From IMG/VR virus record IMGVR_UViG_3300044878_000063, positions 1-57,865 of that record: a stretch of DNA of 57,865 nucleotides. One strand, given 5' to 3'. The stretch's first letter is position 1. Every line of letters starts with the position of its first letter. This document shows positions 6,394-37,040 of this stretch, one piece after another. A program made the position numbers and the translations under genes. The notes under the pieces are model-generated. The model searched no databases, was not told the DNA's origin, and was given only the letters and a program-made list of their open reading frames with translations. The DNA comes from a virus (lineage: Duplodnaviria > Caudoviricetes).

Positions 6394-6409
6394 TAGGGTT
6401 ACTCCTTTC

Positions 6410-6997
6410 TTATCCGACGAGGTCTTCGAACATCTCTTCGAGGATGCGATCGCTGGTCTTGATGCGATCAATTACGTAGACTAGGTCTTCAATGCCGGGG
6501 GACCAAGCTTCATAATCATCATTCTGGTAGATTCGAAACTCGACAAAGTCGAGATCGCCTGGTAGAAAGTCATACTCGAGCATGAAGAAGCCTGCATAGA
6601 TCAACAGCTGATCGAATGAGGCTCTAGAGACTCCGGTTTTGAGATCGAAGATGCGAAGCTCATTCCGCATTTGACCATCGACTTCAATTGTTCGAAAGCC
6701 AATAGCATCTGCAGTACCGAAACTTCGAATCGAATAGAACAAGACCTGTTCCGGCGTCATGTTGAAGCCGATTGAGTCATTGACGTATCGATTCAGGGTT
6801 TTCCCATTTCGGGGAAGCTTCTGCCGCATCTTGATACACATAGCCGCGAAGTTGTGGAGCTCAGTTCCTTTGGCAGCCTGCAGCTGCGTCAAGAACCAAT
6901 TCTGAAGCTTCTCTTTCGAGTACCTCAGCCAGTGATACTTACTCGCGGAAAGCGTGGCGTGCTTACCTGCGAGATGTGAATGAGCGTTGAAGATCAT
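6410..6997 (-). CDS. PD-(D/E)XK (Cas4/RecB-like) nuclease
   Basis: HATLSAS, GTELH, GTADAI, IFDLKTG, QLLIYA. Confidence 0.8.
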   Translation of the reverse strand: MIFNAHSHLAGKHATLSASKYHWLRYSKEKLQNWFLTQLQAAKGTELHNFAAMCIKMRQKLPRNGKTLNRYVNDSIGFNMTPEQVLFYSIRSFGTADAIGFRTIEVDGQMRNELRIFDLKTGVSRASFDQLLIYAGFFMLEYDFLPGDLDFVEFRIYQNDDYEAWSPGIEDLVYVIDRIKTSDRILEEMFEDLVG

Positions 6998-7277: not shown

Positions 7278-7333
7278 GAGACCAATCCAATCGCAAAAAT
7301 TATAGGCCATGGAATTTCGACATCCTGGCCCTT

Positions 7334-7360
7334 TCATTATAGGGCATGTATAGCTTGCGT
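7334..7360 (-). promoter_or_regulatory. Isolated copy of the 27-bp phage promoter upstream of the nuclease-RNAP operon
   Basis: ACGCAAGCTATACATGCCCTATAATGA on -; same spacing as the array copies. Confidence 0.8.
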
Positions 7361-24365: not shown

Positions 24366-25349
24366 CTAGATGAGGTTGTACATGATCCCATCGACGTTGA
24401 AGTCCAGCCACACGGACTTCTCGAAGGCGTTCACGAAGTCGCTCTTCTGCTGGCTGACGATCTTGTCAAGACCGAAGTCGATCTGACCATCGTTGTTCAT
24501 CGGGTCGAAGTTCGGGTGACCCTTGGAGAGCCATCCGACAACCTGACCGGCAGTGGTCTTCGGGAAGTCGAGCGCCGCGTACACGTCGTTCAGGAACAGG
24601 TAGCCCTGCGCTTCCAGCTTGTCGTTCAGGTAGTTCTGCTGGTGGAACAGGTGCATCTGGTTCTGACCCGGAATGCGGGACCAGGAGTCGTTGTACTCGT
24701 CGAAGACTCGACCGTAGGCAGAACCGAGGTTGTTGTAGGGTTCGAGGACCGTTTCGGTACCGGTCTTCTTGCCATCCTCATCGACGGTGTCAACCGTCTT
24801 CTCGACGAGACCGCTGCGGATCAGTGCTTCCTTCTCCGGACCGAGCTCGTCCGTGACCCGCTTGCGGTACTGCTCGAATCCGCTTTCGAGGGACTTGTAG
24901 GCCGCGATCGATGCGACGTTCCGCTGGTTCATAACGCCGTGAGAACCCAGGAGGCAGCCAATGCCAACAAGGCCAACAGACAGAGCTGGCGTGTAGAGTT
25001 TGAGAACATCGACGGAGCGGTTGATGTAGACCTTGCCGAGGGCCTTGGTGTACGCCGTCTCCGACTCGAATTCTCCTTTGCGGTGCGTCTCCTTGACCTC
25101 ATCAGCCTGGTTCTCGGCCTTCTCGATGACACTCTCGAGGCGCAGGGTTGCTCGCGCCGCAAGTACTGCTGCGGTAGTCACACCAGCCACACCAGCCACC
25201 ATGAGGATCTCGGGGCTGTAGCGCTTGACCTTACCGGCGACCTTGAAGAAGGTCTTGGTTGCCACGTTGGCTACTTTCTGTGCGGGAGCAGCAGTCTTGG
25301 CGACTACTTCTGCCGTATCGGTTACTGCATTTGCTACTTCGTTGCTCAA
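24366..25349 (-). CDS. DUF6353-like membrane-associated protein
   Basis: SPEILMVAGVAGV..AAVLA; YRKRV...GPEKE; GYLFLNDVY...GW. Confidence 0.75.
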   Translation of the reverse strand: MSNEVANAVTDTAEVVAKTAAPAQKVANVATKTFFKVAGKVKRYSPEILMVAGVAGVTTAAVLAARATLRLESVIEKAENQADEVKETHRKGEFESETAYTKALGKVYINRSVDVLKLYTPALSVGLVGIGCLLGSHGVMNQRNVASIAAYKSLESGFEQYRKRVTDELGPEKEALIRSGLVEKTVDTVDEDGKKTGTETVLEPYNNLGSAYGRVFDEYNDSWSRIPGQNQMHLFHQQNYLNDKLEAQGYLFLNDVYAALDFPKTTAGQVVGWLSKGHPNFDPMNNDGQIDFGLDKIVSQQKSDFVNAFEKSVWLDFNVDGIMYNLI

Positions 25350-28869: not shown

Positions 28870-28927
28870 GATTATCCTTTCAAGATAATGTGGGTGTCAT
28901 TATAGGGGGTGTTAAAACTGCGAGGGT

Positions 28928-29389
28928 CTAGCGTTGCGTGTAGATCTCTTCGTCTACGTGGTTCTCGACGCCGAACTTAACGTTGCTATGGAACCCTTCC
29001 GGCGCTTGATCATGAAGGATGACATTGGGCTCACCACGAAGCCTCTCACGAAGTGCCGCAAGAGCCTCATCGGAGTTTGTGAGTTTCCGCTGATCCTCAA
29101 CGACAGCGCGGAGCAGCAAGAGGTAGTTGATGTGGTCGGAGATCTTCTCATTCCACACCTCAATCGGGTATTCTTTACCGCTTTCGCACATGTCATAGAT
29201 CGACCCTGTGTGCTTGGCCATCATGCCCGACAGAGCGCCCTGAGGAGTCGTTCCACGAAGCATTGCCGTCCGCTTGAAGATATGGAGCTTATCTTCATTT
29301 GGATTGTATGCTCCATTTTTGGTGGTGAGCATGTTGCGTGATCGATTCATTTGCTCGTCGATCACAATGTCGAATGTCTGTGCATCCAT
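28928..29389 (-). CDS. All-alpha NTP pyrophosphohydrolase-like protein (MazG/DUF1599-like)
   Basis: KNGAY...DKLHIFK...KH..SIYD...EKISDHINYL. Confidence 0.55.
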   Translation of the reverse strand: MDAQTFDIVIDEQMNRSRNMLTTKNGAYNPNEDKLHIFKRTAMLRGTTPQGALSGMMAKHTGSIYDMCESGKEYPIEVWNEKISDHINYLLLLRAVVEDQRKLTNSDEALAALRERLRGEPNVILHDQAPEGFHSNVKFGVENHVDEEIYTQR

Positions 29390-29391
29390 AT

Positions 29392-30153
29392 TTAGCCGAC
29401 CTTCCAGTAGTCTCGGATGGGTTCCTTGCGGAAGTCGATGACGACACATGCGCGTCCATCATCAGTAAGTGCAGCACTGTAGCGAACGTCGAGCTTGTTC
29501 GTTTGTGCCCAACCAAGTTCTTCACCGAGCTTACTGCCCTTGATTCCTAGCAGATTGTAGAAATCATTGAGCGAGGCATATTCTTGCCCGAAGATCTGCT
29601 CATTGATGTCGTTGACAGCCCTACGCACCGACTCCATGTCAGATTCGAAGTAACGCTCAGTGAAGTTGTCGAGGAACAGCGACTTACCATTCCCTGTGAT
29701 GATGACCTGCTTGTCGTTGATCGGATTGCGATCGATGACATCTTTCATTACGGCGTCATGGACTTTGATTTCCTTGTTCTCGCCGATGTGCTCGATCACC
29801 TTGTTTCGATACTCCTTGAAGGCGTATTCGCTGAGGCCTACCGCACTTGCCAACGCAGCACTCCGCTTCGTGCTCACGGTATTCGCACCGATAACACAAG
29901 CGATGGTTGCAAGGCCAGTAACACCGGCAGGAATGTAGTACTTGTAGGTGAGCTGAACTTTCTCGACGATTGTCACGTCGTCAGTACGCTCAGACATCTC
30001 GTTCTGGATGTCAGCATGTGCTTTGGGTGCAGCTTTGGCCACCAGCACGGCAGTCGCTACAACACCTACCACAGCAGCTGCGGTCAGAATGGTGGGCGAG
30101 TTGTCCGAGAGGAGTTTTCGTGCCGACCCAGCAAAGCTGGAAAGTCGTGTCAT
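29392..30153 (-). CDS. DUF6353-like protein, paralogue of 24366-25349
   Basis: NSPTILTAAAVVGVVATAVL; YASLNDFY..LG...LGW. Confidence 0.75.
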   Translation of the reverse strand: MTRLSSFAGSARKLLSDNSPTILTAAAVVGVVATAVLVAKAAPKAHADIQNEMSERTDDVTIVEKVQLTYKYYIPAGVTGLATIACVIGANTVSTKRSAALASAVGLSEYAFKEYRNKVIEHIGENKEIKVHDAVMKDVIDRNPINDKQVIITGNGKSLFLDNFTERYFESDMESVRRAVNDINEQIFGQEYASLNDFYNLLGIKGSKLGEELGWAQTNKLDVRYSAALTDDGRACVVIDFRKEPIRDYWKVG

Positions 30154-30179
30154 CGGAAATAAGACCTTTCAAGATAGGC

Positions 30180-30268
30180 AAAAAAAGAGTGAGAAGGTGT
30201 AGCTTTCGCTACAGACCCCGCATCACGCTAGTCAGTTTTATTTGACTAGTGATCCGGCGATCTTCTTC
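30180..30268 (-). ncRNA. Candidate small RNA 1 (~85 nt)
   Basis: Own promoter; ATCAC/GTGAT and TAGTCA/TGACTA stems, GTAGC-GAAA-GCTAC, T7 end; no ORF. Confidence 0.55.
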
Positions 30269-30283
30269 TCATTATAGGGCATG

Positions 30284-30484
30284 TTATTTTTGCGAGGATT
30301 TCGGGATGACGAACTTCAGCGTCTTTCCGCAATGGAGACAGCGACTGATCGTCGTGATGTCTTTTTCGGCTTCGACGTGATCCAACTGGCAGTTGAAATC
30401 GAAGCGTCGTCCCTTGTGCAACGTGTGTCGCACCAGCCACACAAACAACGTTGCATGGTATGCGACCATCTTGATTTTCCGCAT
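30284..30484 (-). CDS. Small Cys/His protein
   Basis: AAAGGAG RBS; CQLDH...CLHCG. Confidence 0.65.
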   Translation of the reverse strand: MRKIKMVAYHATLFVWLVRHTLHKGRRFDFNCQLDHVEAEKDITTISRCLHCGKTLKFVIPKSSQK

Positions 30485-30503
30485 CTTTGCTCCTTTCAAA
30501 AGC

Positions 30504-30563
30504 AAAAAAATAAGAGTATCTGTTGGGATACAGATTCTTCGACTTAGTGATAAGTGTACTCTC
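30504..30563 (-). ncRNA. Candidate small RNA 2 or leader (~55 nt)
   Basis: Own promoter; GAGTA/TACTC and ATCTGT/ACAGAT pairing; T7 end. Confidence 0.45.
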
Positions 30564-30618
30564 TCATTATAGGGCATGTAATTTCTGCGAGGGTCTGGTC
30601 AGCTTTTTGGCCAGAGGC

Positions 30619-30720
30619 AAAAATATAAGAGAGGCAGTGATTAATTTTTCCTGTATATTACCATTGCTGGCAGTGGGGGGCGAATGCTTATTAGGTCACT
30701 CCAGTACCTAACTGTCTCTC
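30619..30720 (-). ncRNA. Candidate small RNA 3 (~100 nt)
   Basis: Own promoter; 5' GAGAGACAGT pairs with 3' ACTGCCTCTC; T5 end; no RBS/ORF. Confidence 0.55.
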
Positions 30721-30750
30721 TCATTATAGGGCGTGTATTTCTTGCGAGGC

Positions 30751-30951
30751 AAAAATGTAAGGCTTGTGTCTCATAGTACTTGTCTCATTTCTGATTACGT
30801 AGAACACAATAAGTCGCTTTTGCTTTCGGCGATACCTTACAAAATGAGAAGTCGCTGGAAATCCGGATGGATAGGGCTGACACTTCTCGGTGAAAGAGCT
30901 AGAGGCGCCGTGATTAATTGGGCGTCGTCACCTTTAGTCAAAGTGGTTCTT
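30751..30951 (-). ncRNA. Candidate small RNA 4 (~200 nt)
   Basis: Own promoter; GGTGA/TCACC, GAGAAGT/ACTTCTC, TGTAAGG/CCTTACA domains then T5; no RBS/ORF. Confidence 0.55.
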
Positions 30952-31018
30952 TCATTATAGGACATGTTATTTTTGCGAAAAAATGGAAGGCCTTGTTAGG
31001 GCCTTCCATCTTTGAAGG

Positions 31019-31246
31019 TTAACGCGGGTAATGTGTCGAACGCATTCGCTGAGCCTGCTCACGACGACGAACTTCTCGCTTCCAGGTCCTTGCGTTGCGC
31101 GACTGGTTGATGCTCGTCACGATCTTGGCAGCTGCGAGTGCAGCCGTCGAGAGGGTAGCGATGGTTTCCAGGGGGCGCTCATCAAGGAGCTGGAGGAATC
31201 GGTTCTTGACGTCGGTGAGCTTCTTCTTAGCTTGTGCCTTGTTCAC
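31019..31246 (-). CDS. Cassette gene, hypothetical
   Basis: Promoter + AAAGGA RBS + terminator. Confidence 0.8.
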   Translation of the reverse strand: MNKAQAKKKLTDVKNRFLQLLDERPLETIATLSTAALAAAKIVTSINQSRNARTWKREVRRREQAQRMRSTHYPR

Positions 31247-31334
31247 GGTATTTCCTTTCGTTGGGGTTCTTCATTATAGGACAAGTTATGCGTGCGAAAA
31301 CTATAAGACCTTGTAGGGTCTTATAGCTTGAGGG

Positions 31335-31580
31335 TTAGATACGGTTTGTGATACGGATGAAATCAACGCCTTCGTTGAATTGTCGTATGACGTTCCGCCG
31401 TTCTTCACGATCGAGCATGTTGACGGTCTTGCGGAGGGAGTCGTGGTAGTAATCGTTCCAGCGGTTGAGTCTTTCAACTCGACCTTTCAGATCATCGATT
31501 TCCTTCTGCTTGTGGGCGTCTTTGCCGATAGCGTAGAGAACGGCGAGGGTCACAGCAACTGTGAGGGCAGTTTTCTTCAT
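31335..31580 (-). CDS. Cassette gene, N-terminal hydrophobic helix
   Basis: Promoter + RBS; MKKTALTVAVTLAVLYAIG. Confidence 0.8.
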   Translation of the reverse strand: MKKTALTVAVTLAVLYAIGKDAHKQKEIDDLKGRVERLNRWNDYYHDSLRKTVNMLDREERRNVIRQFNEGVDFIRITNRI

Positions 31581-31668
31581 GGTATTTCCTTCCATAGGGG
31601 GTTCTCACTATAGCCCATGTAGAATTAGCGAAAACTAGAAGACCTTGTGGGGTCTTCTAGCTATTGAT

Positions 31669-31905
31669 TCAGTCTTCCGACTTCTTGCGGGCAGATCGGT
31701 CTTCAATGGCCGTCATGGCTCCGTACTTCGCAGTGTCGAGAGCAGCAGCGCTTGCGAGGACGACTAGGACTCCGCCAATGACTACCTTTCCGACTTTCGT
31801 CGCGATGTGGACGATGTCTTCTTTGGTGATTGACGGAGTCGTATCGAGCTCGCCGTTGTTGGCGTCTTTTTTGATACGAAGTTCGAGCTTGTGGTTCTTG
31901 AACAT
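31669..31905 (-). CDS. Cassette gene, single TM
   Basis: AAAAGGAG RBS; VVIGGVLVVLASAAAL. Confidence 0.8.
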   Translation of the reverse strand: MFKNHKLELRIKKDANNGELDTTPSITKEDIVHIATKVGKVVIGGVLVVLASAAALDTAKYGAMTAIEDRSARKKSED

Positions 31906-31995
31906 GATTCTCCTTTTATAGTGGGTTACTTCTTCACTATAGGACATGTAGTATGCGCGAAAAATAGAAGGCCGTGTTAGGGCCCCCTATTTTGA

Positions 31996-32184
31996 TTACT
32001 TGCGCTTACGCTCTTGGTGAGCTAGAATGCGACCAATCAGACTGCCTTGCCAGAAGTAGCGTGCGGTCTTCTGCACTTCTTTCCAATGGACCTTTGAAGG
32101 ATCAGATTCGATCAGGTCGGCAAGTGCGCGCAGGAGATGTACGAGTTTAGTGGCGTGCTGGGCAGAGGTCAAGACGGGTATCAT
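31996..32184 (-). CDS. Cassette gene, hypothetical
   Basis: Promoter + RBS + terminator. Confidence 0.75.
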   Translation of the reverse strand: MIPVLTSAQHATKLVHLLRALADLIESDPSKVHWKEVQKTARYFWQGSLIGRILAHQERKRK

Positions 32185-32294
32185 TATAGGTCCTTTCGTA
32201 GGGGTGGGTTCTCACTATAGGGCATGTATTTCCTACGAAAAAATAGAAGAGCTTGTGGGCTCTCCTATTTGGAGGTTCTGTGGTCGAATGATTC

Positions 32295-32441
32295 TTATCG
32301 AATCAGGGCACGGATAGTACCGCGAATGATCACGTAGTTGGTTGCATAAATAGCTGCTGCTTTAGCAAGCTGCTTAACAACCTCCTTCGTAACCATTGCT
32401 TTGGTAGCAGGGGCGCCGGTGATTGTAACGAGGGTTTTCAT
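32295..32441 (-). CDS. Cassette gene (48 aa)
   Basis: MKTLVTITGAPATKAMVTKEVVKQLAK...; not in ORF track. Confidence 0.75.
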   Translation of the reverse strand: MKTLVTITGAPATKAMVTKEVVKQLAKAAAIYATNYVIIRGTIRALIR

Positions 32442-32530
32442 TTCGTTTCCTTTCAGAGGGGTTCTCACTATAGGGTATGTTATTCTCGCGAAAAAATAGA
32501 AGAGCTTGTGGGCTCTCCTATTTTGAAGGG

Positions 32531-32758
32531 TTACTTCTTCTTGAGCTTCTTCATGAGCTTCTTGGGAGTCTCCTGAACGACGCTGATGATCGCCGGACCG
32601 TAGAGAACAGCCGCTGTGAAGGCCAACTGGGACGCGGCAGCACCAATGATGAGTTGGATGCCAGCGCGGCGGTAGTTGACGCCTTCGAAGCGGAACTTCT
32701 TGGGGTTCGGGGTGATCAGCAGGTAGCCGATGTCAGAGAGATCTTTCTTGATGGTCAT
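32531..32758 (-). CDS. Cassette gene, hydrophobic segment
   Basis: Promoter + RBS + terminator. Confidence 0.8.
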   Translation of the reverse strand: MTIKKDLSDIGYLLITPNPKKFRFEGVNYRRAGIQLIIGAAASQLAFTAAVLYGPAIISVVQETPKKLMKKLKKK

Positions 32759-32845
32759 TTTGATTCCTTTCAGAGGGGTTTCTTCTTCACTATAGCCTAT
32801 GTAAACTTTGCGAAAAATAAGAGGCCATGTAGGCCCCTTATCGGG

Positions 32846-33115
32846 TTATGAGATCTTCTTTACTTGACAGAGCACTTTGTGCCACGGGGCTTTTTTGCTG
32901 AAGTACGTGTCAGAGATCAGATAGACGCCCGGACCAGCGTCAAAGCAACCTCGTTTGAGGGCTTGTAGCGTAGTTGCATGTAGTAGGCAGGCGACAATAA
33001 AGTCACGTGCTGATTCGGGCTTGTACGCCAAAAAAGCCTTTTTGAGGTCTTCTTTGGTGATGGCGGGTGCGTCTTCGGATATGACGAGTTCTTTGCTAAG
33101 AGTTCGTGTTTTCAT
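32846..33115 (-). CDS. Cassette gene, hypothetical
   Basis: Promoter + RBS + terminator. Confidence 0.8.
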   Translation of the reverse strand: MKTRTLSKELVISEDAPAITKEDLKKAFLAYKPESARDFIVACLLHATTLQALKRGCFDAGPGVYLISDTYFSKKAPWHKVLCQVKKIS

Positions 33116-33208
33116 ATTAGTTCCTTTGGTAGTAGGGGGTTCTCACTATAGGGCATGTAAACTAAGCGAAAAAACTAGAAGACCTTGTGGGGTCTTCTAG
33201 ATTGAGGG

Positions 33209-33334
33209 TCAGTAACGGCGGGAATTCGCCAAATTACGTACTTCGCGGACAAAGATCCAGATCAGCCAGAGGCCACCGGTGAAGATGGTCAGGATGAGAT
33301 CGAGGATGAAGTTGCCGAAGCCGTACTTTTTCAT
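33209..33334 (-). CDS. Cassette gene, membrane microprotein (41 aa)
   Basis: MKKYGFGNFILDLILTIFTGGLWLIWIFVREVR...; not in ORF track. Confidence 0.8.
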   Translation of the reverse strand: MKKYGFGNFILDLILTIFTGGLWLIWIFVREVRNLANSRRY

Positions 33335-33433
33335 TGTATTCTTCTTTCGTTAGAGGGGTTCTCATTATAAGGCGTGTAATTCTTGCGATTTTGCAAAAAA
33401 TAGGAGGCCTTGTGGGCTTCCTATCTTTGAGTG

Positions 33434-33631
33434 TTACTCAGTCAGTTCTTTGTTGTCTTCTTTCTTGGCGTCGATCATGTTGATGATGAAGCCGACGGCG
33501 AAGTGCACAGCCACACCAGTGGCGATGTTGATGACGAATTTCTTGATCATCTGTCGCTTGATGCGCTTCTGCAGTACAGCCAGATCGGCTTCACTCATGG
33601 ACATGACGGTTTCCAGGGGAGTTGCAGACAT
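33434..33631 (-). CDS. Cassette gene, single TM
   Basis: Promoter + RBS; FVINIATGVAVHFAVGFII. Confidence 0.8.
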   Translation of the reverse strand: MSATPLETVMSMSEADLAVLQKRIKRQMIKKFVINIATGVAVHFAVGFIINMIDAKKEDNKELTE

Positions 33632-33721
33632 AACAGTTCCTTTCATAGAGGGGGTTCTCACTATAGGACGTGTTATTTTCGCGAAAAAATAGGAGGGCTT
33701 GTTAGGCTCTCCTATTCTGAT

Positions 33722-33922
33722 TTAATCTTCCTTGTCGAGGTATTCCTTGAGGTTGGCGAGGCGCTGAAGTGCAGATCCGAGCAGCTTTGCGACCTCTGCG
33801 AGTTCCATCAAATCCGCAACGCTCACGTTTTCGTGAGTCATAGCGGTCTTGACTTTGTCGAGTTGGGCAACGATTTGCTGCTGGAATTCCTTGTACTCCA
33901 GTCGCATGGCGTCTTTAGACAT
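33722..33922 (-). CDS. Cassette gene, helical protein
   Basis: Promoter + RBS + terminator. Confidence 0.8.
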   Translation of the reverse strand: MSKDAMRLEYKEFQQQIVAQLDKVKTAMTHENVSVADLMELAEVAKLLGSALQRLANLKEYLDKED

Positions 33923-34012
33923 GATGTTCCTTTCATTGGGATTAATTCTCACTATAGGACATGTAAATCTAGCGAAAAAATAGGAGGCCTTGTGGGGCTT
34001 CCTATCTTTGAG

Positions 34013-34249
34013 TTACTTCCTGAATAGTGCTTGCAGGAATGTCTTGGATTTCTTCTGTTCATCTTCGAGCTGGCTGAGGTAGTGAAGGCTGTAGCGGATC
34101 AGGGAGTCAGTTTGCCATTCCGGGCTCTTGTGGAGGAAGCTTCCGATGGTGTTATCGGGGCTCTCTTTCAAGTGCTCAGTAAGGCGCTGTTCCTGTTCCT
34201 TCTTAGCGTATTCAATGTGCCAGCGAAGGTTTTCAGTAGGAGTAGACAT
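34013..34249 (-). CDS. Cassette gene, hypothetical
   Basis: Promoter + RBS + terminator. Confidence 0.8.
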   Translation of the reverse strand: MSTPTENLRWHIEYAKKEQEQRLTEHLKESPDNTIGSFLHKSPEWQTDSLIRYSLHYLSQLEDEQKKSKTFLQALFRK

Positions 34250-34344
34250 TGCATGTCCTTTCATAGGGATTAGTTCTCACTATAGGACATGTTTTTACCG
34301 CGAAAGGTAAAAATAGAAGTCCTTGTGGGACTCCTATTTTGATG

Positions 34345-34530
34345 TTAAGCTTCCTTGACGTCTCGATCAACGAGTCGTGCCTGGGCGCAGCGGAAGTCCA
34401 TCTCGTCCTTCACATCTTCCTTGAAGACCTTGACGGACTCCACAGCTGCTTTGGGCAGTGAGGCGACCGCCTTGGGGATCAGGGCGATGGAAGCGACGAA
34501 ACGGACAGTGCGGTTGCTCTTGGCAGACAT
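34345..34530 (-). CDS. Cassette gene, hypothetical
   Basis: Promoter + RBS + terminator. Confidence 0.8.
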   Translation of the reverse strand: MSAKSNRTVRFVASIALIPKAVASLPKAAVESVKVFKEDVKDEMDFRCAQARLVDRDVKEA

Positions 34531-34626
34531 GGTATTTCCTTTCGTGGGGGGTTACTTCTTCATTATATGCCTTGTAAATTGTGCGAGGAAAAACTAGAAG
34601 GGCTTGTGGGCTCTTCTAGCTTGAGG

Positions 34627-34857
34627 TTACTGCTTCGGTATGAGGTAGGTTACTTCGTACTTGTATACAAATACCCGGAAAATCGTGTAGAGCTTCATCT
34701 CGTAGGAGTTGGCAAAGCGGTTCGGTCGAGCGATACCGGACATCTTGAAGTACTTCTTGCAAAGCTTCTTCTCGAGTTCGGTAGCGAACAACGTCATCAC
34801 GATGGGTTCCTGCGATCCGATGGTCATCAGATTAAATTTGCGGGTTGATTTGAACAT
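34627..34857 (-). CDS. Cassette gene, hypothetical basic protein
   Basis: Promoter + RBS + terminator. Confidence 0.8.
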   Translation of the reverse strand: MFKSTRKFNLMTIGSQEPIVMTLFATELEKKLCKKYFKMSGIARPNRFANSYEMKLYTIFRVFVYKYEVTYLIPKQ

Positions 34858-34951
34858 GTTAGTTCCTTTCATAGTGTGTTAGTTCTCACTATAAGGCGTG
34901 TATTCTTTGCGAAAAAATAGGAGGCCTTGTAGGGCTTCCTATCTTTGAGGG

Positions 34952-35170
34952 CTACCTCATTTCAACGATGCTAATGGAAAATGCCTTGTCGATCACGACG
35001 GCAGACGCGAACTCCTCGGGCGTGAGGATCGTGCTGTAGTTCTCGTCGGGCTTCGTCGCCGGGTACAGGAACACGTGGTTCATGGATTCCGGGGCGGGCT
35101 CGATTCCTTCATTCAGCTCGGTCACGAGGGGGAGGGTGTCTTCGGTGATTACGAGGGCAAAGAATTTCAT
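34952..35170 (-). CDS. Cassette gene, hypothetical acidic protein
   Basis: Start reassigned to MKFFAL after AAAGGA. Confidence 0.8.
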   Translation of the reverse strand: MKFFALVITEDTLPLVTELNEGIEPAPESMNHVFLYPATKPDENYSTILTPEEFASAVVIDKAFSISIVEMR

Positions 35171-35271
35171 TAGTTTTCCTTTGATAGTGGGGGTGGTGCT
35201 CACTATAAGGCGTGTATTCTTTGCGAAAGGCAAAAAAAGAGAATCCTTGTGGGATTCACTTTTAGAGGGGT

Positions 35272-35379
35272 TTACTTCTTGCGGTTCTTGTGGTTCAGTT
35301 CGGTGACGAGGCAGAGTGCAACGAATTTGGTTTCCCATTCGAGGTGCAGTCGCATGTTGTCATACTGGTACTGAGTCAT
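35272..35379 (-). CDS. Cassette gene (35 aa)
   Basis: MTQYQYDNMRLHLEWETKFVALCLVTELNHKNRKK; not in ORF track. Confidence 0.7.
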   Translation of the reverse strand: MTQYQYDNMRLHLEWETKFVALCLVTELNHKNRKK

Positions 35380-35476
35380 GATAGTTCCTTTGTTAGTAGT
35401 TTCTTTCTCATTATATGCCATGTAAAATGTGCGAGGAAAAACTAAAAGGGCTTGTGGGCTCTTTTAGCTTGAGGAT

Positions 35477-35683
35477 TTAATACAGGTAGACTTCAAATGC
35501 TAGGCCTTTGGGTATTACCAAAGTTCCACACAAGTCAATGTTGGGGTCCACTAGGGCGAACTGGATCATGTGGTCACCTTTCTCAGTCAGTTTGACTTTG
35601 TCAGTGATTACATATTCCTGTCCACCCATGGGGAATGACATTCCTTGGGATAGTTCTTCAGTAAGCTTAGTTGCGATTCGCAT
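35477..35683 (-). CDS. Cassette gene, small beta-rich protein
   Basis: AAGGAG RBS; resembles 36309-36518. Confidence 0.8.
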   Translation of the reverse strand: MRIATKLTEELSQGMSFPMGGQEYVITDKVKLTEKGDHMIQFALVDPNIDLCGTLVIPKGLAFEVYLY

Positions 35684-35770
35684 GTTATGCTCCTTGTTAT
35701 TGGGGTTCTCATTATAGGGCATGTTATTTAAGCGAAAAAAATAGGAGGCCTTGTGGGCTCTCCTATCTCG

Positions 35771-35992
35771 CTACTTGTTGTAGCTGATGTCGATGACGGT
35801 TGTATCGTTGGTAAACATGTGGTGTTCTTTTCCGTCGGACAGTTCATACAGCGGGAGGACGATGTTGGACATAGCGGGCTTATCGAATACCTTGACTTCT
35901 CCGCCATTGGCGATGAACAGGGTTCCGATGAGTACGATGGCAACAGCGAGGCTGATGAACAGTGCGTTGAAAAATGCTTCAATAGCTTTCAT
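35771..35992 (-). CDS. Cassette gene, single TM
   Basis: FFNALFISLAVAIVLIGTLFI. Confidence 0.8.
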   Translation of the reverse strand: MKAIEAFFNALFISLAVAIVLIGTLFIANGGEVKVFDKPAMSNIVLPLYELSDGKEHHMFTNDTTVIDISYNK

Positions 35993-36083
35993 GATTATTC
36001 CTTAATTAGATAGGGTCTTCTTCTCATTATATCCCTTGTAAATCATGCGAGAAAAAAGAGGAGGCCTTGTTAGGGCCTCGCTC

Positions 36084-36215
36084 TTAGTATGAGTTTTCGA
36101 TTTCTTTAGTCTCTTTATTGATGGTACGGATCTGGAGGATTGACCAGAGGACTGATGCAGGAAGCGCAAACATAGCGATTCCGGAACAGAACTCTACAAT
36201 CTCGTTGGCGTTCAT
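36084..36215 (-). CDS. Cassette gene, single TM (43 aa)
   Basis: MNANEIVEFCSGIAMFALPASVLWSILQI...; not in ORF track. Confidence 0.7.
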   Translation of the reverse strand: MNANEIVEFCSGIAMFALPASVLWSILQIRTINKETKEIENSY

Positions 36216-36308
36216 AATAAGGGTTCCTTTCAGAGGAGGGGTTCTCATTATAAGGCATGTAAACCGTGCGAAAAACTAGAAGGCCTTGTGGGGCCTCCTA
36301 GCTGAGGT

Positions 36309-36518
36309 TTACTTCTGGTTCCAGATGGTCATGAGAGTATTCTTCTCGAAGGTCAAGATGCCGGTGATCTTGGGGCGAAAGATCGAGTGGAACTGGATGA
36401 GGTATGCGGTACCAATCTTTTCGATTTGGTTAACGCGGTACGTCAAGCCAGCCACTTTGATGCAGTCGTCGATCATCAGGTCTTCGACCTTCGTGTAGTT
36501 CTTCTTATAGCCTTTCAT
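36309..36518 (-). CDS. Cassette gene, small beta-rich protein
   Basis: Promoter + RBS + terminator. Confidence 0.8.
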   Translation of the reverse strand: MKGYKKNYTKVEDLMIDDCIKVAGLTYRVNQIEKIGTAYLIQFHSIFRPKITGILTFEKNTLMTIWNQK

Positions 36519-36705
36519 GGCGTTCCTTTCGTAGGGGTTCTCATTATAGCCCAAGTAGAACTTGCGATTGTTTCACCAGAAATTCCCCCCGCGCTTTTTT
36601 TCGAAAATAAAGGAGGGCATGTAGGCAAAAAAAAGAAGCCGTGCGCAGAGGGTTTAATCTCTACGCACGACTCCCATTTTGAATTGTTTGATTCGGGGGT
36701 TCGTG

Positions 36706-36984
36706 TTAACGAAGGGTCTTAACGAATCCGACTGCTTTCGAGGTGATGACGTGCAACCGTTCGTGATAGATGATCAAACCGATGCCGAGGATGTTGGTGA
36801 TGGCCGGGATGTAGTCGCCCTTGTTAACAGGGTCAGACACTTGCGTGCGCTTGACTTTGTTAATTCGTTCGACTGTCTCGAGGACGTCATTGTATTCCTT
36901 GGTACCGGGTTCGAAATCCAGCAGCTTAGTTGTTGCGAGGTCAAGCACCAGATCGAGTCCGATCAGTTCTTTCTTCTTAAACAT
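36706..36984 (-). CDS. Cassette gene, membrane-associated
   Basis: NILGIGLIIYHER..VITSKA; promoter at 37006. Confidence 0.8.
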   Translation of the reverse strand: MFKKKELIGLDLVLDLATTKLLDFEPGTKEYNDVLETVERINKVKRTQVSDPVNKGDYIPAITNILGIGLIIYHERLHVITSKAVGFVKTLR

Positions 36985-37040
36985 GAGGTCTCCTTTCAAG
37001 AGTCTTCATTATAATGCATGTTTTCCATGCGACAGTTGGT

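What the first reader, a model, noticed from the sequence alone, without database searches (positions are those of the whole stretch)
30180..30951. Four consecutive cassettes express structured small RNAs instead of proteins
Seen: promoters at 30269, 30564, 30721 and 30952 are each followed by ~85, 55, 100 and 200 nt lacking an RBS/ORF, folding into stems (three pair 5' to 3', one has a GAAA tetraloop) and ending in T5-7GC. All contain ATCAC: ATCACTA(A)GTC in two and AATTAATCAC in the other two. Inference: a dedicated phage sRNA cluster with a shared motif, possibly protein decoys, antitoxin or crRNA mimics, or antisense regulators. RNAs 1 and 2 could instead be attenuator leaders for the downstream genes.
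Basis: partly seen in the sequence, partly recalled or inferred. Interest (0 to 1): 0.82.

Follow-up and report, generated by a model that had tools for sequence, protein, structure and literature searches.

The report
Phage island of structured small RNAs
Four promoter-driven units in this soil phage hold no protein gene; they carry five folded small-RNA modules that are conserved, with matching base-pair changes, in related Arthrobacter-type phages, where nobody has annotated them and their job is unknown.

Summary
On the minus strand, four copies of the phage's repeated promoter (CCTATAATGA at 30952-30961, 30721-30730, 30564-30573 and 30269-30278) are followed by about 205, 106, 64 and 93 nt with no ribosome-binding site or gene, and each stretch ends in a U-run.

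Relatives show these are real structured RNAs, not decayed cassettes. The five modules, which I name X, Z, Y, C and D, recur in 10 other metagenomic loci and in cultured Arthrobacter phages of clusters AU and AM and phage Argan. Base-pair covariation beat all 500 shuffles for each family on the covariation score.

All five share one design. The 5' end, starting at the U of TATAR|UGA, pairs with the segment just before the U-run.

- **C** is a stand-alone unit in 8 of 10 phages.
- **Z** is stand-alone in Argan.
- **D** is always the leader of a DUF6353 gene.

Nothing matches Rfam or tRNA models. The shared ATCAC motif is only partly conserved.

My best reading is that C, X, Z and Y are stable trans-acting RNAs, probably protein-binding, and that D is also a leaky-terminator leader. 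Expression and function are untested.

The parts
30956..30977 (-). Promoter copy 1: CGCA..ACATGTCCTATA, upstream of the proposed start at A30955.
   Evidence: It is an exact CCTATAATGA copy. It aligns with the other cassette promoters and follows the terminator of the 75-aa gene.
30841..30955 (-). RNA module X. It has a closing helix UGAAAGA/UCUUUCA, a hairpin, a hairpin bearing the conserved 11-nt loop CAAUUAAUCAC, then a GAGAAGU...ACUUCUC hairpin and U4.
   Evidence: Homologs are present in L007, L061/L165, L101, L219 and, in part, L214. On alignment A3 (5 sequences), 91.6% of cells are paired, 8 pairs change on both sides, and 0 of 500 shuffles reach the covariation score. The single fold gives -27.5 kcal/mol, z -2.24.
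30751..30842 (-). RNA module Z. It has a closing helix UGUAAGG/CCUUACA, a UCGC/GCGA hairpin with loop CGAAAGCAAAA, a long third helix, and U5. It has no promoter of its own here, so it is probably co-transcribed with X.
   Evidence: Homologs are in L008, in Argan as a stand-alone cassette, and in cluster AM phages as a leader: 31 GenBank records, all in unannotated DNA. On A6 (5 sequences), 95.2% of cells are paired, 9 pairs change on both sides, and 0 of 500 shuffles reach the covariation score.
30725..30746 (-). Promoter copy 2.
   Evidence: This is the only one of the four that the sigma-70 scan also accepts.
30619..30724 (-). RNA module Y. It has a 13-bp closing helix between the 5' and 3' ends, a UUAGG/CCUAA hairpin with loop UACUGGAGUGA, a CCA-GCAA-UGG hairpin, a single-stranded AAAAAUUAAUC, and U5.
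   Evidence: Homologs are in L101 and in the cultured phages Ingrid and Loretta. On A4 (3 sequences), 95.7% of cells are paired, 9 pairs change on both sides, and 0 of 500 shuffles match.
30575..30612 (-). Conserved spacer element (TCTGGCCA..CTGACCAG) between the U-run of Y and the promoter of C.
   Evidence: A similar TGCCCA-n-CTGrCCAr element precedes the C promoter in all the relatives I read. Its function is unknown.
30568..30590 (-). Promoter copy 3.
30504..30567 (-). RNA module C. It has a closing helix GAGAGU/ACUCUU, hairpin 1, a conserved linker UCGAAGA, hairpin 2, and U7.
   Evidence: There are 10 distinct sequences (A1). 97.2% of cells are paired, 6 pairs change on both sides, and 0 of 500 shuffles match. 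Slid controls give 23-51% paired.
30284..30484 (-). A 66-aa ORF with a ribosome-binding site but no promoter of its own, inserted between C and the D promoter.
   Evidence: It is absent at this place in 8 of 10 relatives. L101 holds an unrelated ORF there, with no BLASTP alignment between the two. It has no Pfam or PHROG hit.
30273..30295 (-). Promoter copy 4.
30180..30272 (-). RNA module D, the leader of the DUF6353 gene. It has a closing helix UGAGAAG/CUUCUCA, a long hairpin, a GUAGC-GAAA-GCUAC hairpin, and U7, followed by the ribosome-binding site CUUGAAAGG.
   Evidence: The fold gives -38.4 kcal/mol, z -6.65. On A2 (11 sequences), 87.5% of cells are paired, 11 pairs change on both sides, and 0 of 500 shuffles match. 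The same three-helix fold appears in all 11 loci and in 4 AU phages.
29392..30153 (-). DUF6353 gene (253 aa), the gene that always follows the RNA island.
   Evidence: Pfam PF19880, E 6.6e-79, and phrog_2152. Relatives are in 237 phage records.

Best explanation
The region is an island of four transcription units that make small structured RNAs and no protein.

Each unit starts at a copy of the phage's own roughly 30-nt promoter. Each gives an RNA whose 5' end, from the U that follows TATAR, pairs with the stretch just before a U-run. The product is therefore a closed bundle of helices with only a U-tail free (inferred).

The window holds five such modules: X and Z (one unit), Y, C and D.

I take C, X, Z and Y to be stable RNAs that act in trans. 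Most likely they bind, and so divert or recruit, host or phage proteins through their conserved loops and GNRA hairpins. They seem to be swapped between related phages like accessory or counter-defence genes (inferred).

D has the same build but always sits between its promoter and the DUF6353 gene. I take it to be a leaky-terminator leader as well: terminated transcripts give the small RNA, and read-through gives the mRNA (inferred).

Shown here: the promoter copies, the lack of conserved ORFs, the conservation, and the base-pair covariation.

Not shown: transcription, RNA ends, stability, partners or phenotype.
For: **1. Repeated promoter, four copies with no ribosome-binding site or ORF behind them**.

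**2. Homologs in 10 further metagenomic loci and in cultured Arthrobacter phages**.

**3. Covariation in every family.**

| Family | Sequences | Cells paired | Pairs changed on both sides |
|---|---|---|---|
| C | 10 | 97.2% | 6 |
| D | 11 | 87.5% | 11 |
| Z | 5 | 95.2% | 9 |
| X | 5 | 91.6% | 8 |
| Y | 3 | 95.7% | 9 |

In each family 0 of 500 shuffles reach the covariation score, and slid controls give 23-53% paired.

**4. Strand.** Conserved G-U pairs fit only the minus strand as RNA: C columns 5/58 are GU in 9 of 10 sequences, and Z columns 12/83 are UG in 5 of 5.

**5. Independence from downstream genes.**
- C is followed directly by the next promoter in 8 of 10 phages.
- Z is a stand-alone cassette in Argan.
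- L174 has a stand-alone paralog of D.

**6. Common design.** My script called 51 promoter-defined units ORF-less.
- Five of these are, by eye, coding cassettes that my ribosome-binding-site rule missed.
- In the other 46 the fold pairs the 5' end from nt 1-5.
- In 29 the partner lies within 14 nt of the U-run, against 2 of 113 coding cassettes.
- The helix covaries between families: UGAGAAG/CUUCUCA, UGAAAGG/CCUUUCA, UGAUAGGA/UCCUAUCA.

**7. No conserved micro-ORF** in C (5-13 aa), D (8-18 aa), X or Z.

**8. Module content differs between close relatives**.

**9. Leaky termination at C.** The window and L101 hold two unrelated promoter-less ORFs at the same site after C's U-run.
Against: - There is no expression data. 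No RNA run holds the region, so starts, ends and abundance are inferred.
- The generic scans do not recognise the four RNA ends as terminators, and they accept only 1 of the 4 promoters as sigma-70-like.
- Single-sequence fold z-scores for C (-1.44) and Z (-1.45) are unremarkable.
- The alignments are small (3-11 related sequences), and shuffle controls ignore relatedness.
- Y keeps a 23-27-codon frame from its first AUG in 3 of 3 sequences, so a small peptide is not excluded there.
- D is a leader in 15 of 15 phages read, and Z is a leader in cluster AM. A purely cis-acting role would explain those two without any trans function.
- No partner or target was found:
  - no outlier among 118 phage start regions;
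  - no copy of Z in the species genomes scanned.
- Protein binding is a guess from the architecture alone.
Confidence: 0.55

Rival explanations
1. The modules are cis-acting transcription-control elements. A stack of promoter-proximal terminators or attenuators, or RNA elements that modify the polymerase, gates transcription from the early small-gene array into the DUF6353 and replication genes. Under this reading they have no trans function.
For: - The island always sits at the junction just upstream of DUF6353.
- D lies between its promoter and the gene in 11 of 11 close loci and in 4 of 4 AU phages.
- Z is a leader in cluster AM.
- C precedes promoter-less ORFs in the window and in L101.
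- Every module ends in a helix plus a U-run.
Against: - C is followed by a fresh promoter in 8 of 10 phages. Z in Argan and the D paralog in L174 are also followed by a promoter, so nothing downstream depends on them.
- Conserved loops and GNRA hairpins go beyond what a terminator needs.
- At least 8 unrelated module types occupy the same place.
- No known riboswitch or leader family matches.
- I found no alternative antiterminator fold, but I did not search for one systematically.
Confidence: 0.25
2. The units encode very small peptides, for example leaderless ORFs that start at the 5'-terminal AUG or GUG. The conserved sequence would then reflect coding.
For: - Every unit would start with AUG or GUG if transcription starts at the R of TATA|R.
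- Y keeps a 23-27-codon frame in 3 of 3 sequences.
Against: - Frame lengths are not conserved: C 5-13 aa, D 8-18 aa, X 5-40 aa, and Z has no shared frame.
- Substitutions come in base-pair partners.
- The 5' AUG is buried in the closing helix.
- In coding cassettes the 5' RUG is in frame with the gene in 37 of 102 cases, which is what chance gives.
Confidence: 0.05
3. The tandem promoters with short transcripts mark a replication origin, and the transcripts prime or activate it.
For: - Four close promoters with non-coding transcripts lie upstream of the replication module.
- The cumulative GC skew reaches its minimum near 25.5-27.5 kb and rises through 30-37 kb.
Against: - The skew minimum is not at the island. 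The rise coincides with the repeated C-rich leaders of the cassette array, so it is confounded.
- No AT-rich unwinding stretch or iteron array turned up. Within-genome similarity of the region is confined to the promoters.
- Covarying RNA helices are not needed for priming.
Confidence: 0.05
4. The units are decayed gene cassettes: promoters and terminators left behind after gene loss, with chance folds.
For: - The array is built of promoter-gene-terminator cassettes, and gene content varies between relatives.
- The end of Z resembles the loop and 3' half of the usual terminators.
Against: - The modules are conserved across phages whose flanking DUF6353 protein is only 36-71% identical.
- Compensatory changes occur in all five families.
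- No ORF remnants are visible.
Confidence: 0.03

Closest known systems
Phage-encoded small stable RNAs, such as the small RNAs beside the T4 tRNA genes and sRNAs of other lytic phages (recalled, not looked up)
   Same: They are short non-coding transcripts encoded by a lytic phage, clustered together, with stable folds and no known function at first description.
   Different: Here each RNA has its own copy of a phage-specific promoter and its own U-run. The families are new: none matches Rfam. No tRNAs accompany them. The set is shuffled between close relatives.
Viral decoy RNAs with a terminal stem and U-tail, such as adenovirus VA RNA and Epstein-Barr EBERs, and cellular Y RNAs (recalled)
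   Same: This is a likeness of build only. The 5' and 3' ends pair in a terminal stem, internal hairpins carry conserved loops, a 3' U-run follows, and each unit has its own promoter.
   Different: There is no sequence or model match, and no Y RNA or YrlA family was reported in the Rfam scans. No partner protein is known. tRNA-like T-arm modules occur in AU-cluster relatives but not in this window.
Promoter-proximal attenuators and riboswitch leaders
   Same: D (and Z in cluster AM) lies between a promoter and a gene and ends in a helix plus U-run just before the ribosome-binding site.
   Different: The same kinds of module also occur as stand-alone units followed by a new promoter. No known aptamer class matches, and no antiterminator alternative was identified.
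Promoters of phage-encoded single-chain RNA polymerases
   Same: One continuous conserved block of about 30 nt ends in TATA followed by a purine. The RNA helices imply a start at or next to that purine. The genome encodes a 946-aa homolog of the YonO/crAss-type polymerase.
   Different: Which polymerase uses the promoter is not tested. The TATAAT inside it could also serve the host enzyme. The YonO promoter is not defined in the paper passages I read.

Membership tests
Independently transcribed phage small RNA (promoter, structured RNA, U-run) | Own promoter directly upstream | tested here: met
   Four exact copies of the cassette promoter motif. This is evidence by motif only: the sigma-70 scan accepts 1 of 4.
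Independently transcribed phage small RNA (promoter, structured RNA, U-run) | No conserved protein-coding frame | tested here: met
   frames vary in C, D, X and Z. Y keeps a 23-27-codon frame in 3 of 3 sequences, so Y alone is inconclusive.
Independently transcribed phage small RNA (promoter, structured RNA, U-run) | Secondary structure conserved with compensatory changes | tested here: met
   6, 11, 9, 8 and 9 pairs changed on both sides, and 0 of 500 shuffles reach the covariation score in each.
Independently transcribed phage small RNA (promoter, structured RNA, U-run) | Terminal helix followed by a U-run that ends the transcript | tested here: inconclusive
   A helix plus T5-T7 is present in the sequence, but the generic terminator scan flags none of the four ends. 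Promoter-less ORFs after C suggest read-through.
Independently transcribed phage small RNA (promoter, structured RNA, U-run) | Discrete transcript in infected cells | not testable with these tools
   No RNA run is listed for the region.
Transcription attenuator or riboswitch leader | Lies between a promoter and the regulated gene with no promoter in between | tested here: inconclusive
   Met for D (11 of 11 close loci, 4 of 4 AU phages). For C it is met in the window and L101 but not in 8 of 10 phages. It is not met for X+Z or Y in the window.
Transcription attenuator or riboswitch leader | Match to a known aptamer or leader class | tested here: not met
   Rfam gives 0 hits at gathering score for the whole window. 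With E up to 10, only chance-level hits appear.
Transcription attenuator or riboswitch leader | Mutually exclusive terminator and antiterminator folds | not tested
   Only minimum-energy and consensus folds were computed.
Y RNA / YrlA | Match to the family model | tested here: not met
   The Rfam scans report no such family.
Y RNA / YrlA | Terminal stem formed by the 5' and 3' ends | tested here: met
Y RNA / YrlA | tRNA-like module and a neighbouring Ro60-type gene | tested here: not met
   No T-arm-like motif occurs in the window's RNAs; they occur only in AU relatives. I did not scan all window ORFs for a Ro60-type domain.
tRNA | Cloverleaf recognised by a tRNA finder | tested here: not met
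   ARAGORN finds 0 genes in the window and 0 in Tatanka, MediumFry, L007, L084 and L188. It makes one doubtful minus-strand call in Ingrid, outside the RNAs.
CRISPR-repeat mimic (RNA anti-CRISPR) | Likeness to a CRISPR repeat of the host | not testable with these tools
   The host and its repeats are unknown. The only CRISPR-DR hit (E 9.9) lies in the 66-aa ORF, not in an RNA.
Type III antitoxin RNA (ToxI-like) | Tandem direct repeats next to a toxin gene | tested here: not met
   Within-genome similarity of 30180-30960 is confined to promoter segments of 29-35 nt. The four RNAs share no repeat unit.

The most novel reading that the evidence does not exclude
The island is an RNA-only accessory locus, the nucleic-acid counterpart of the protein anti-defence islands of phages. 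Each cassette would yield a closed, nuclease-resistant, aptamer-like RNA that titrates a different host immune or RNA-handling protein. The cassettes would be transcribed from the first purine after TATA by the phage's own single-chain two-barrel RNA polymerase, and swapped between phages as the hosts change. A bolder form of the idea is that the RNAs are cofactors or templates of that polymerase, whose relatives include RNA-dependent enzymes.
Probability: 0.2. Interest if true: 0.9.

Novelty: new variant of a known kind. Interest (0 to 1): 0.78.

Why it matters
Phage-encoded small RNAs are known, but few have been studied and almost none in phages of Actinobacteria.

- **New RNA families.** The window holds five, and its relatives at least three or four more. 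None is in Rfam.
- **Present in cultured phages, unannotated.** They lie in unannotated gaps of dozens of cultured, freely available Arthrobacter phages: 31 cluster AM records for Z, Ingrid and Loretta for Y, and the four AU phages I read for D-like and T-arm-like modules.
- **Annotation error.** In Ingrid and Loretta a reverse-strand "hypothetical protein" is annotated on top of the RNAs.
- **A search rule.** A simple design rule marks them: the promoter-proximal 5' end pairs with the stretch before the U-run. This gives a way to search for more.
- **Directly testable.** Because host and phages can be grown and phage engineering exists for this group, the question of what a lytic phage gains from a shuffled set of small structured RNAs can be put to experiment.
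- **Transcription start.** The helices also place the start at the purine after TATA. That bears on which polymerase reads the promoter that this phage supercluster shares across host genera.

Tried and rejected
**Known RNA families.** Rfam found nothing at gathering score in the whole window. With E up to 10 the island gave 5 chance-level hits, best E 0.25 for an archaeal snoRNA model over the promoter. Ingrid's island gave 2.

**tRNA.** ARAGORN found none in the window and none in five relatives. It made one doubtful minus-strand call in Ingrid.

**Generic promoter and terminator scan.** It accepts 1 of the 4 promoters and none of the 4 RNA ends. My reading therefore rests on the repeated motif and on comparison, not on that scan.

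**GenBank similarity.**
- Megablast of 2.7 kb around the island found no match.
- Blastn with C+D from L007 matched only the promoter part, in 13 records.

**Pattern scans bring mostly chance hits.**

| Scan | Stretches returned | Real homologs |
|---|---|---|
| Viral contigs, 15-mer | 77 | 5 |
| Viral contigs, second pattern | 58 | 5 |
| Metagenome contigs | 112 | 9 |

Four of the 9 metagenome hits repeat contigs or sequences I already held.

**Antisense targets in the phage.** I ran duplexfold of the five RNAs against 118 start regions. The best z-scores were -2.3 to -2.9, with no outlier. The method is crude. The complement of the X loop is not found in phage transcripts beyond chance.

**Host copies.** The Z core pattern gave 5 hits in the species-genome collection. 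All were unrelated coding DNA of non-actinobacterial genomes.

**Leaderless translation from the 5' RUG.** It is in frame with the gene in 37 of 102 coding cassettes, which is chance level.

**Origin of replication.** The GC skew is confounded by the cassette array.

**Wider supercluster.** Gordonia phage Magel and Streptomyces phage FrodoSwaggins have no gap before DUF6353.

**Expression.** No RNA holder is listed for the region. I did not use read laying, because contigs of DNA runs cannot show RNA ends.

**Literature.**
- The cluster AU announcement PMC5679793 (whole text) mentions no promoters, terminators or non-coding RNAs and reports no tRNAs.
- In Klyczek 2017, PMC5513430 (term search only), "promoter", "terminator" and "RNA polymerase" occur 0 times.
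- Searches for prior descriptions (listings only) turned up none. That does not prove none exists.
- Supplements were closed. Figure S1 and the tables of bioRxiv 10.1101/842583, and the Klyczek supplements, may bear on the polymerase and on intergenic repeats.

Full report
**Setting.**
- The window is a complete or near-complete virus record of 57,865 bases (97% by the collection's estimate).
- Its genes run on the minus strand.
- From about 37015 down to 28906 the minus strand carries an array of about 25 small cassettes. Each is a G+C-rich hairpin with a U-run, then a conserved promoter of about 30 nt (CGCA..TTACAyG..CCTATA, then RTGAGAA), then a GAAAGG-type ribosome-binding site and a short ORF.
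- The promoter core CCTATAATGA occurs 9 times exactly, always on the minus strand. With up to two mismatches it occurs 62 times against 36.7 +/- 5.8 in shuffles.
- The gene after the array is a DUF6353 protein (E 6.6e-79).
- Its relatives are in 237 phage records, led by cluster AU Arthrobacter phages (Gordonvirus) at 44-48% identity. The host is therefore most likely an Arthrobacter-like actinobacterium (inference).

**The observation.**
- Alone among the 25 in the array, they are not followed by a ribosome-binding site and start codon (my reading).
- From the purine after TATA to the end of the next U-run, the units are:
  - 205 nt (30751-30955);
  - 106 nt (30619-30724);
  - 64 nt (30504-30567);
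  - 93 nt (30180-30272).
- The last two are followed by a ribosome-binding site and a gene: a 66-aa ORF and DUF6353.
The z-scores range from -1.44 to -6.65.
- The generic scans do not help. They accept one of the four sites as a sigma-70-type promoter and none of the RNA ends as a terminator.

**Relatives.**
- A search with the DUF6353 protein in viral contigs gave 27 loci. Two are at 70-71% identity (L007, L008) and have ORF-less cassettes in the same place.
- Pattern scans built on the third RNA then found L061, L084 and L101 among viral contigs (5 true among 77 and among 58 stretches).
- The same approach found L165, L174, L188, L214 and L219 among metagenome contigs (9 true among 112 stretches, four of them repeats of sequences already held).
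- Splitting each locus at its promoters shows an island of two to four ORF-less units immediately upstream of DUF6353 in every one.
- I name the window's modules X, Z, Y, C and D:

| Module | Coordinates | Note |
|---|---|---|
| X | 30841-30955 | |
| Z | 30751-30842 | appended to X, no promoter of its own |
| Y | 30619-30724 | |
| C | 30504-30567 | |
| D | 30180-30272 | |

- C and D are in all 11 loci.
- X is in the window, L007, L061/L165, L101, L219 and, in part, L214.
- Y is in the window and L101.
- Z is in the window and L008.
- Relatives carry further module types in the same place, in L008/L188, L084/L174 and L188, and L174 has a stand-alone paralog of D.

**Cultured phages.**
- The four AU phages I read (Tatanka, Nightmare, MediumFry, Ingrid) have the same promoter. 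In the 390-420-nt gap before their DUF6353 gene they carry three or four ORF-less units.
  - These include a short D-like leader with a GNRA or similar hairpin.
  - They also include two modules with tRNA T-arm-like hairpins.
- Ingrid and Loretta also carry Y at 86.7% identity. It lies under a reverse-strand "hypothetical protein" that is probably a miscall.
- The core of Z matches 31 records of cluster AM phages (Mudcatvirus), always in unannotated DNA. There it is the leader of a three-gene operon that ends in the DUF6353-size gene.
- In phage Argan, Z is a stand-alone cassette between a terminator-promoter pair and the next promoter.
- Gordonia phage Magel and Streptomyces phage FrodoSwaggins, more distant carriers of DUF6353, have no such gap.

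**Structure.** Consensus folds and pair counts support all five families.

| Family | Sequences | Cells paired | Pairs changed on both sides | Covariation score, observed vs shuffled |
|---|---|---|---|---|
| C | 10 | 97.2% | 6 | 0.226 vs 0.079 |
| D | 11 | 87.5% | 11 | 0.197 vs 0.134 |
| Z | 5 | 95.2% | 9 | 0.419 vs 0.189 |
| X | 5 | 91.6% | 8 | 0.252 vs 0.135 |
| Y | 3 | 95.7% | 9 | 0.580 vs 0.291 |

- In every family 0 of 500 shuffles reach the observed covariation score, and sliding the partner by 1-3 columns drops pairing to 23-53%.
- The tool warns that related sequences can beat shuffles without any structure. The sets are small, and the D structure was projected from one member. The slid controls and the number of distinct pair types are the stronger part of this evidence.
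- Conserved G-U pairs would be C-A on the other strand, which fixes the minus strand as the RNA strand.
- I left L165 out of A1 and A3 because its C is identical and its X nearly identical to those of L061. I left L214 out of A3 because its X is cut by the contig end.

**A shared design.**
- In each family the 5' strand of the closing helix begins at the U of TATAR|UGA, and its partner lies just before the U-run.
- The helix differs between families in step with the sequence after the promoter: UGAGAAG/CUUCUCA in D, UGAAAGG/CCUUUCA in X (UGAAAGA/UCUUUCA in the window), 13 covarying pairs in Y, and UGAUAGGA/UCCUAUCA in an L188 module.
- My script called 51 promoter-defined units in 15 loci ORF-less.
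  - Five are coding cassettes missed by my ribosome-binding-site rule (by eye).
  - In the other 46 the fold pairs the 5' end from nt 1-5.
  - In 29 the partner is within 14 nt of the U-run, against 2 of 113 coding cassettes.
  - The remaining 17 are multi-module transcripts in which the 5' end closes the first module.
- It follows (inference) that transcription starts at or next to the purine after TATA.
  - That is too close to TATAAT for that hexamer to be a standard -10 element.
  - It fits a promoter read as one block, as in phage single-chain polymerases (layout recalled, not tested).
- The genome encodes a 946-aa protein of PHROG 4291, labelled "RNA-dependent RNA polymerase" (E 0), with a C-terminal helix-turn-helix.
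  - A preprint describes this protein in the AM/AU/AW/DJ/CC/EL/BI supercluster as a YonO/crAss-like polymerase homolog (10.1101/842583, passages).
- The promoter itself recurs at 91-97% identity over about 30 nt in Streptomyces and Rhodococcus phages of that supercluster.
- Which enzyme uses the promoter remains open.

**Coding potential.**
- Frames from the 5' AUG/GUG or from internal starts are not conserved in C (5-13 aa), D (8-18 aa), X (5-40 aa) or Z.
- Y keeps a 23-27-codon frame in 3 of 3 sequences, although its differences fall in paired positions.
- In coding cassettes the 5' RUG is in frame with the gene in 37 of 102 cases, as expected by chance.

**What the RNAs are not.**
- No Rfam family matches and there is no tRNA.
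- The RNAs share no repeat unit beyond the promoter.
- No CRISPR-repeat-like hit falls in the RNAs.
- There is no clear antisense partner among 118 phage start regions.
- Z has no copy in the species-genome collection.

**Interpretation.**
- The comparative data show that these are selected RNA structures.
- At least C and Z work independently of any downstream gene. C is followed by a fresh promoter in 8 of 10 phages, and Z in Argan likewise.
- Three features are what one expects of abundant, stable, trans-acting RNAs that meet proteins:
  - closed ends;
  - GNRA hairpins in most relatives, with GCAA, GAGA, GAAA and GUAA loops;
  - conserved loops (CAAUUAAUMAC in X, UACUGGAGUGA in Y, CGAAAGCAAAA in Z, and the linker UCGAAGA in C).
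- The turnover of modules between close relatives resembles accessory or counter-defence loci. All of this is inference.
- D, and Z in cluster AM, are always leaders. Two unrelated promoter-less ORFs sit after C in the window and in L101. Termination at these A/U-rich closing helices is therefore probably partial.
- A cis-regulatory role for D is likely and may be its only role.
- I put about 0.9 on "real structured RNAs", 0.55 on the full reading given as best explanation, and 0.25 on a purely cis-acting island.

- AAUUAAUCAC is the loop of X and part of the junction of Y, and it is conserved in both families.
- The ATCAC in C and D sits in a hairpin loop and a stem that differ in the relatives, so it is not a common functional motif of all four.

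**Novelty.**
- I found no description of these RNAs or of the promoter in the papers I could search or read. Supplements were closed.
- The families are new. The kind of thing, phage-encoded small RNAs, is known.
- The modular, separately promoted, end-closed array is a new variant of it.

Noticed in passing
window 3631-6471 (-): A 946-aa protein of PHROG 4291, labelled 'RNA-dependent RNA polymerase' (E 0), with a C-terminal helix-turn-helix. It has no Pfam polymerase hit and no PDB sequence match. It corresponds to the YonO/crAss-like polymerase homolog described for this phage supercluster (10.1101/842583, passages).
   Followed up: partly
window 28906-37015 (-) and 7343; L007:5874-5913: The roughly 30-nt cassette promoter has no -35 element at sigma-70 spacing. 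It ends in TATA plus a purine, and the RNA helices start right after that purine. The same promoter matches Streptomyces (BI) and Rhodococcus phages at 91-97% over about 30 nt. It may belong to the phage polymerase rather than to the host's.
   Followed up: partly
window 7295-7343 (-): A fifth ORF-less mini-leader. A promoter copy is followed by a GGCCAGGA...UCCAUGGCC hairpin and a U-run, just before the exonuclease/polymerase operon.
   Followed up: no
window 30575-30612 (-): A conserved element of about 25 nt (TGCCCA-n-CTGrCCAr) lies between the preceding U-run and the promoter of C in all relatives. In AU phages a similar element precedes the D promoter. It may be an operator.
   Followed up: no
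L164:3164-3400, L277, L278, L280 (AU phages Tatanka, Nightmare, MediumFry, Ingrid): Two ORF-less modules carry tRNA T-arm-like hairpins (GCGG-UUCGAAU-CCGC and a GGUUGAAAUCC type) inside 5'-3' closed folds. The first has no U-run and runs into the next promoter. ARAGORN calls no tRNA there.
   Followed up: partly
L280:1058-1336 (Ingrid gene 41; the same in Loretta): A reverse-strand 'hypothetical protein' is annotated across the Y and T-arm RNA modules, in a genome where all other genes run forward. It is probably a miscalled ORF.
   Followed up: no
window 24366-25349 (-): A second DUF6353 paralog (327 aa, E 2.2e-66) has no RNA leader. It follows the upstream gene directly.
   Followed up: no
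L061, minus strand of the locus, about 1.9 kb upstream of its island: Another ORF-less cassette of 137 nt with the same closed design (5' GUGAGAAGGAG pairs before a U11 run). RNA cassettes are therefore not confined to the island.
   Followed up: no
window 30284-30484 (-) and L101:4256-4429: Two unrelated small ORFs (66 and 57 aa, no BLASTP alignment) occupy the same site after the U-run of C. Each has a ribosome-binding site but no promoter.
   Followed up: yes
window 30000-37000: The cassette array has strongly positive plus-strand GC skew (0.10-0.17). The cumulative skew minimum lies near 25.5-27.5 kb.
   Followed up: no
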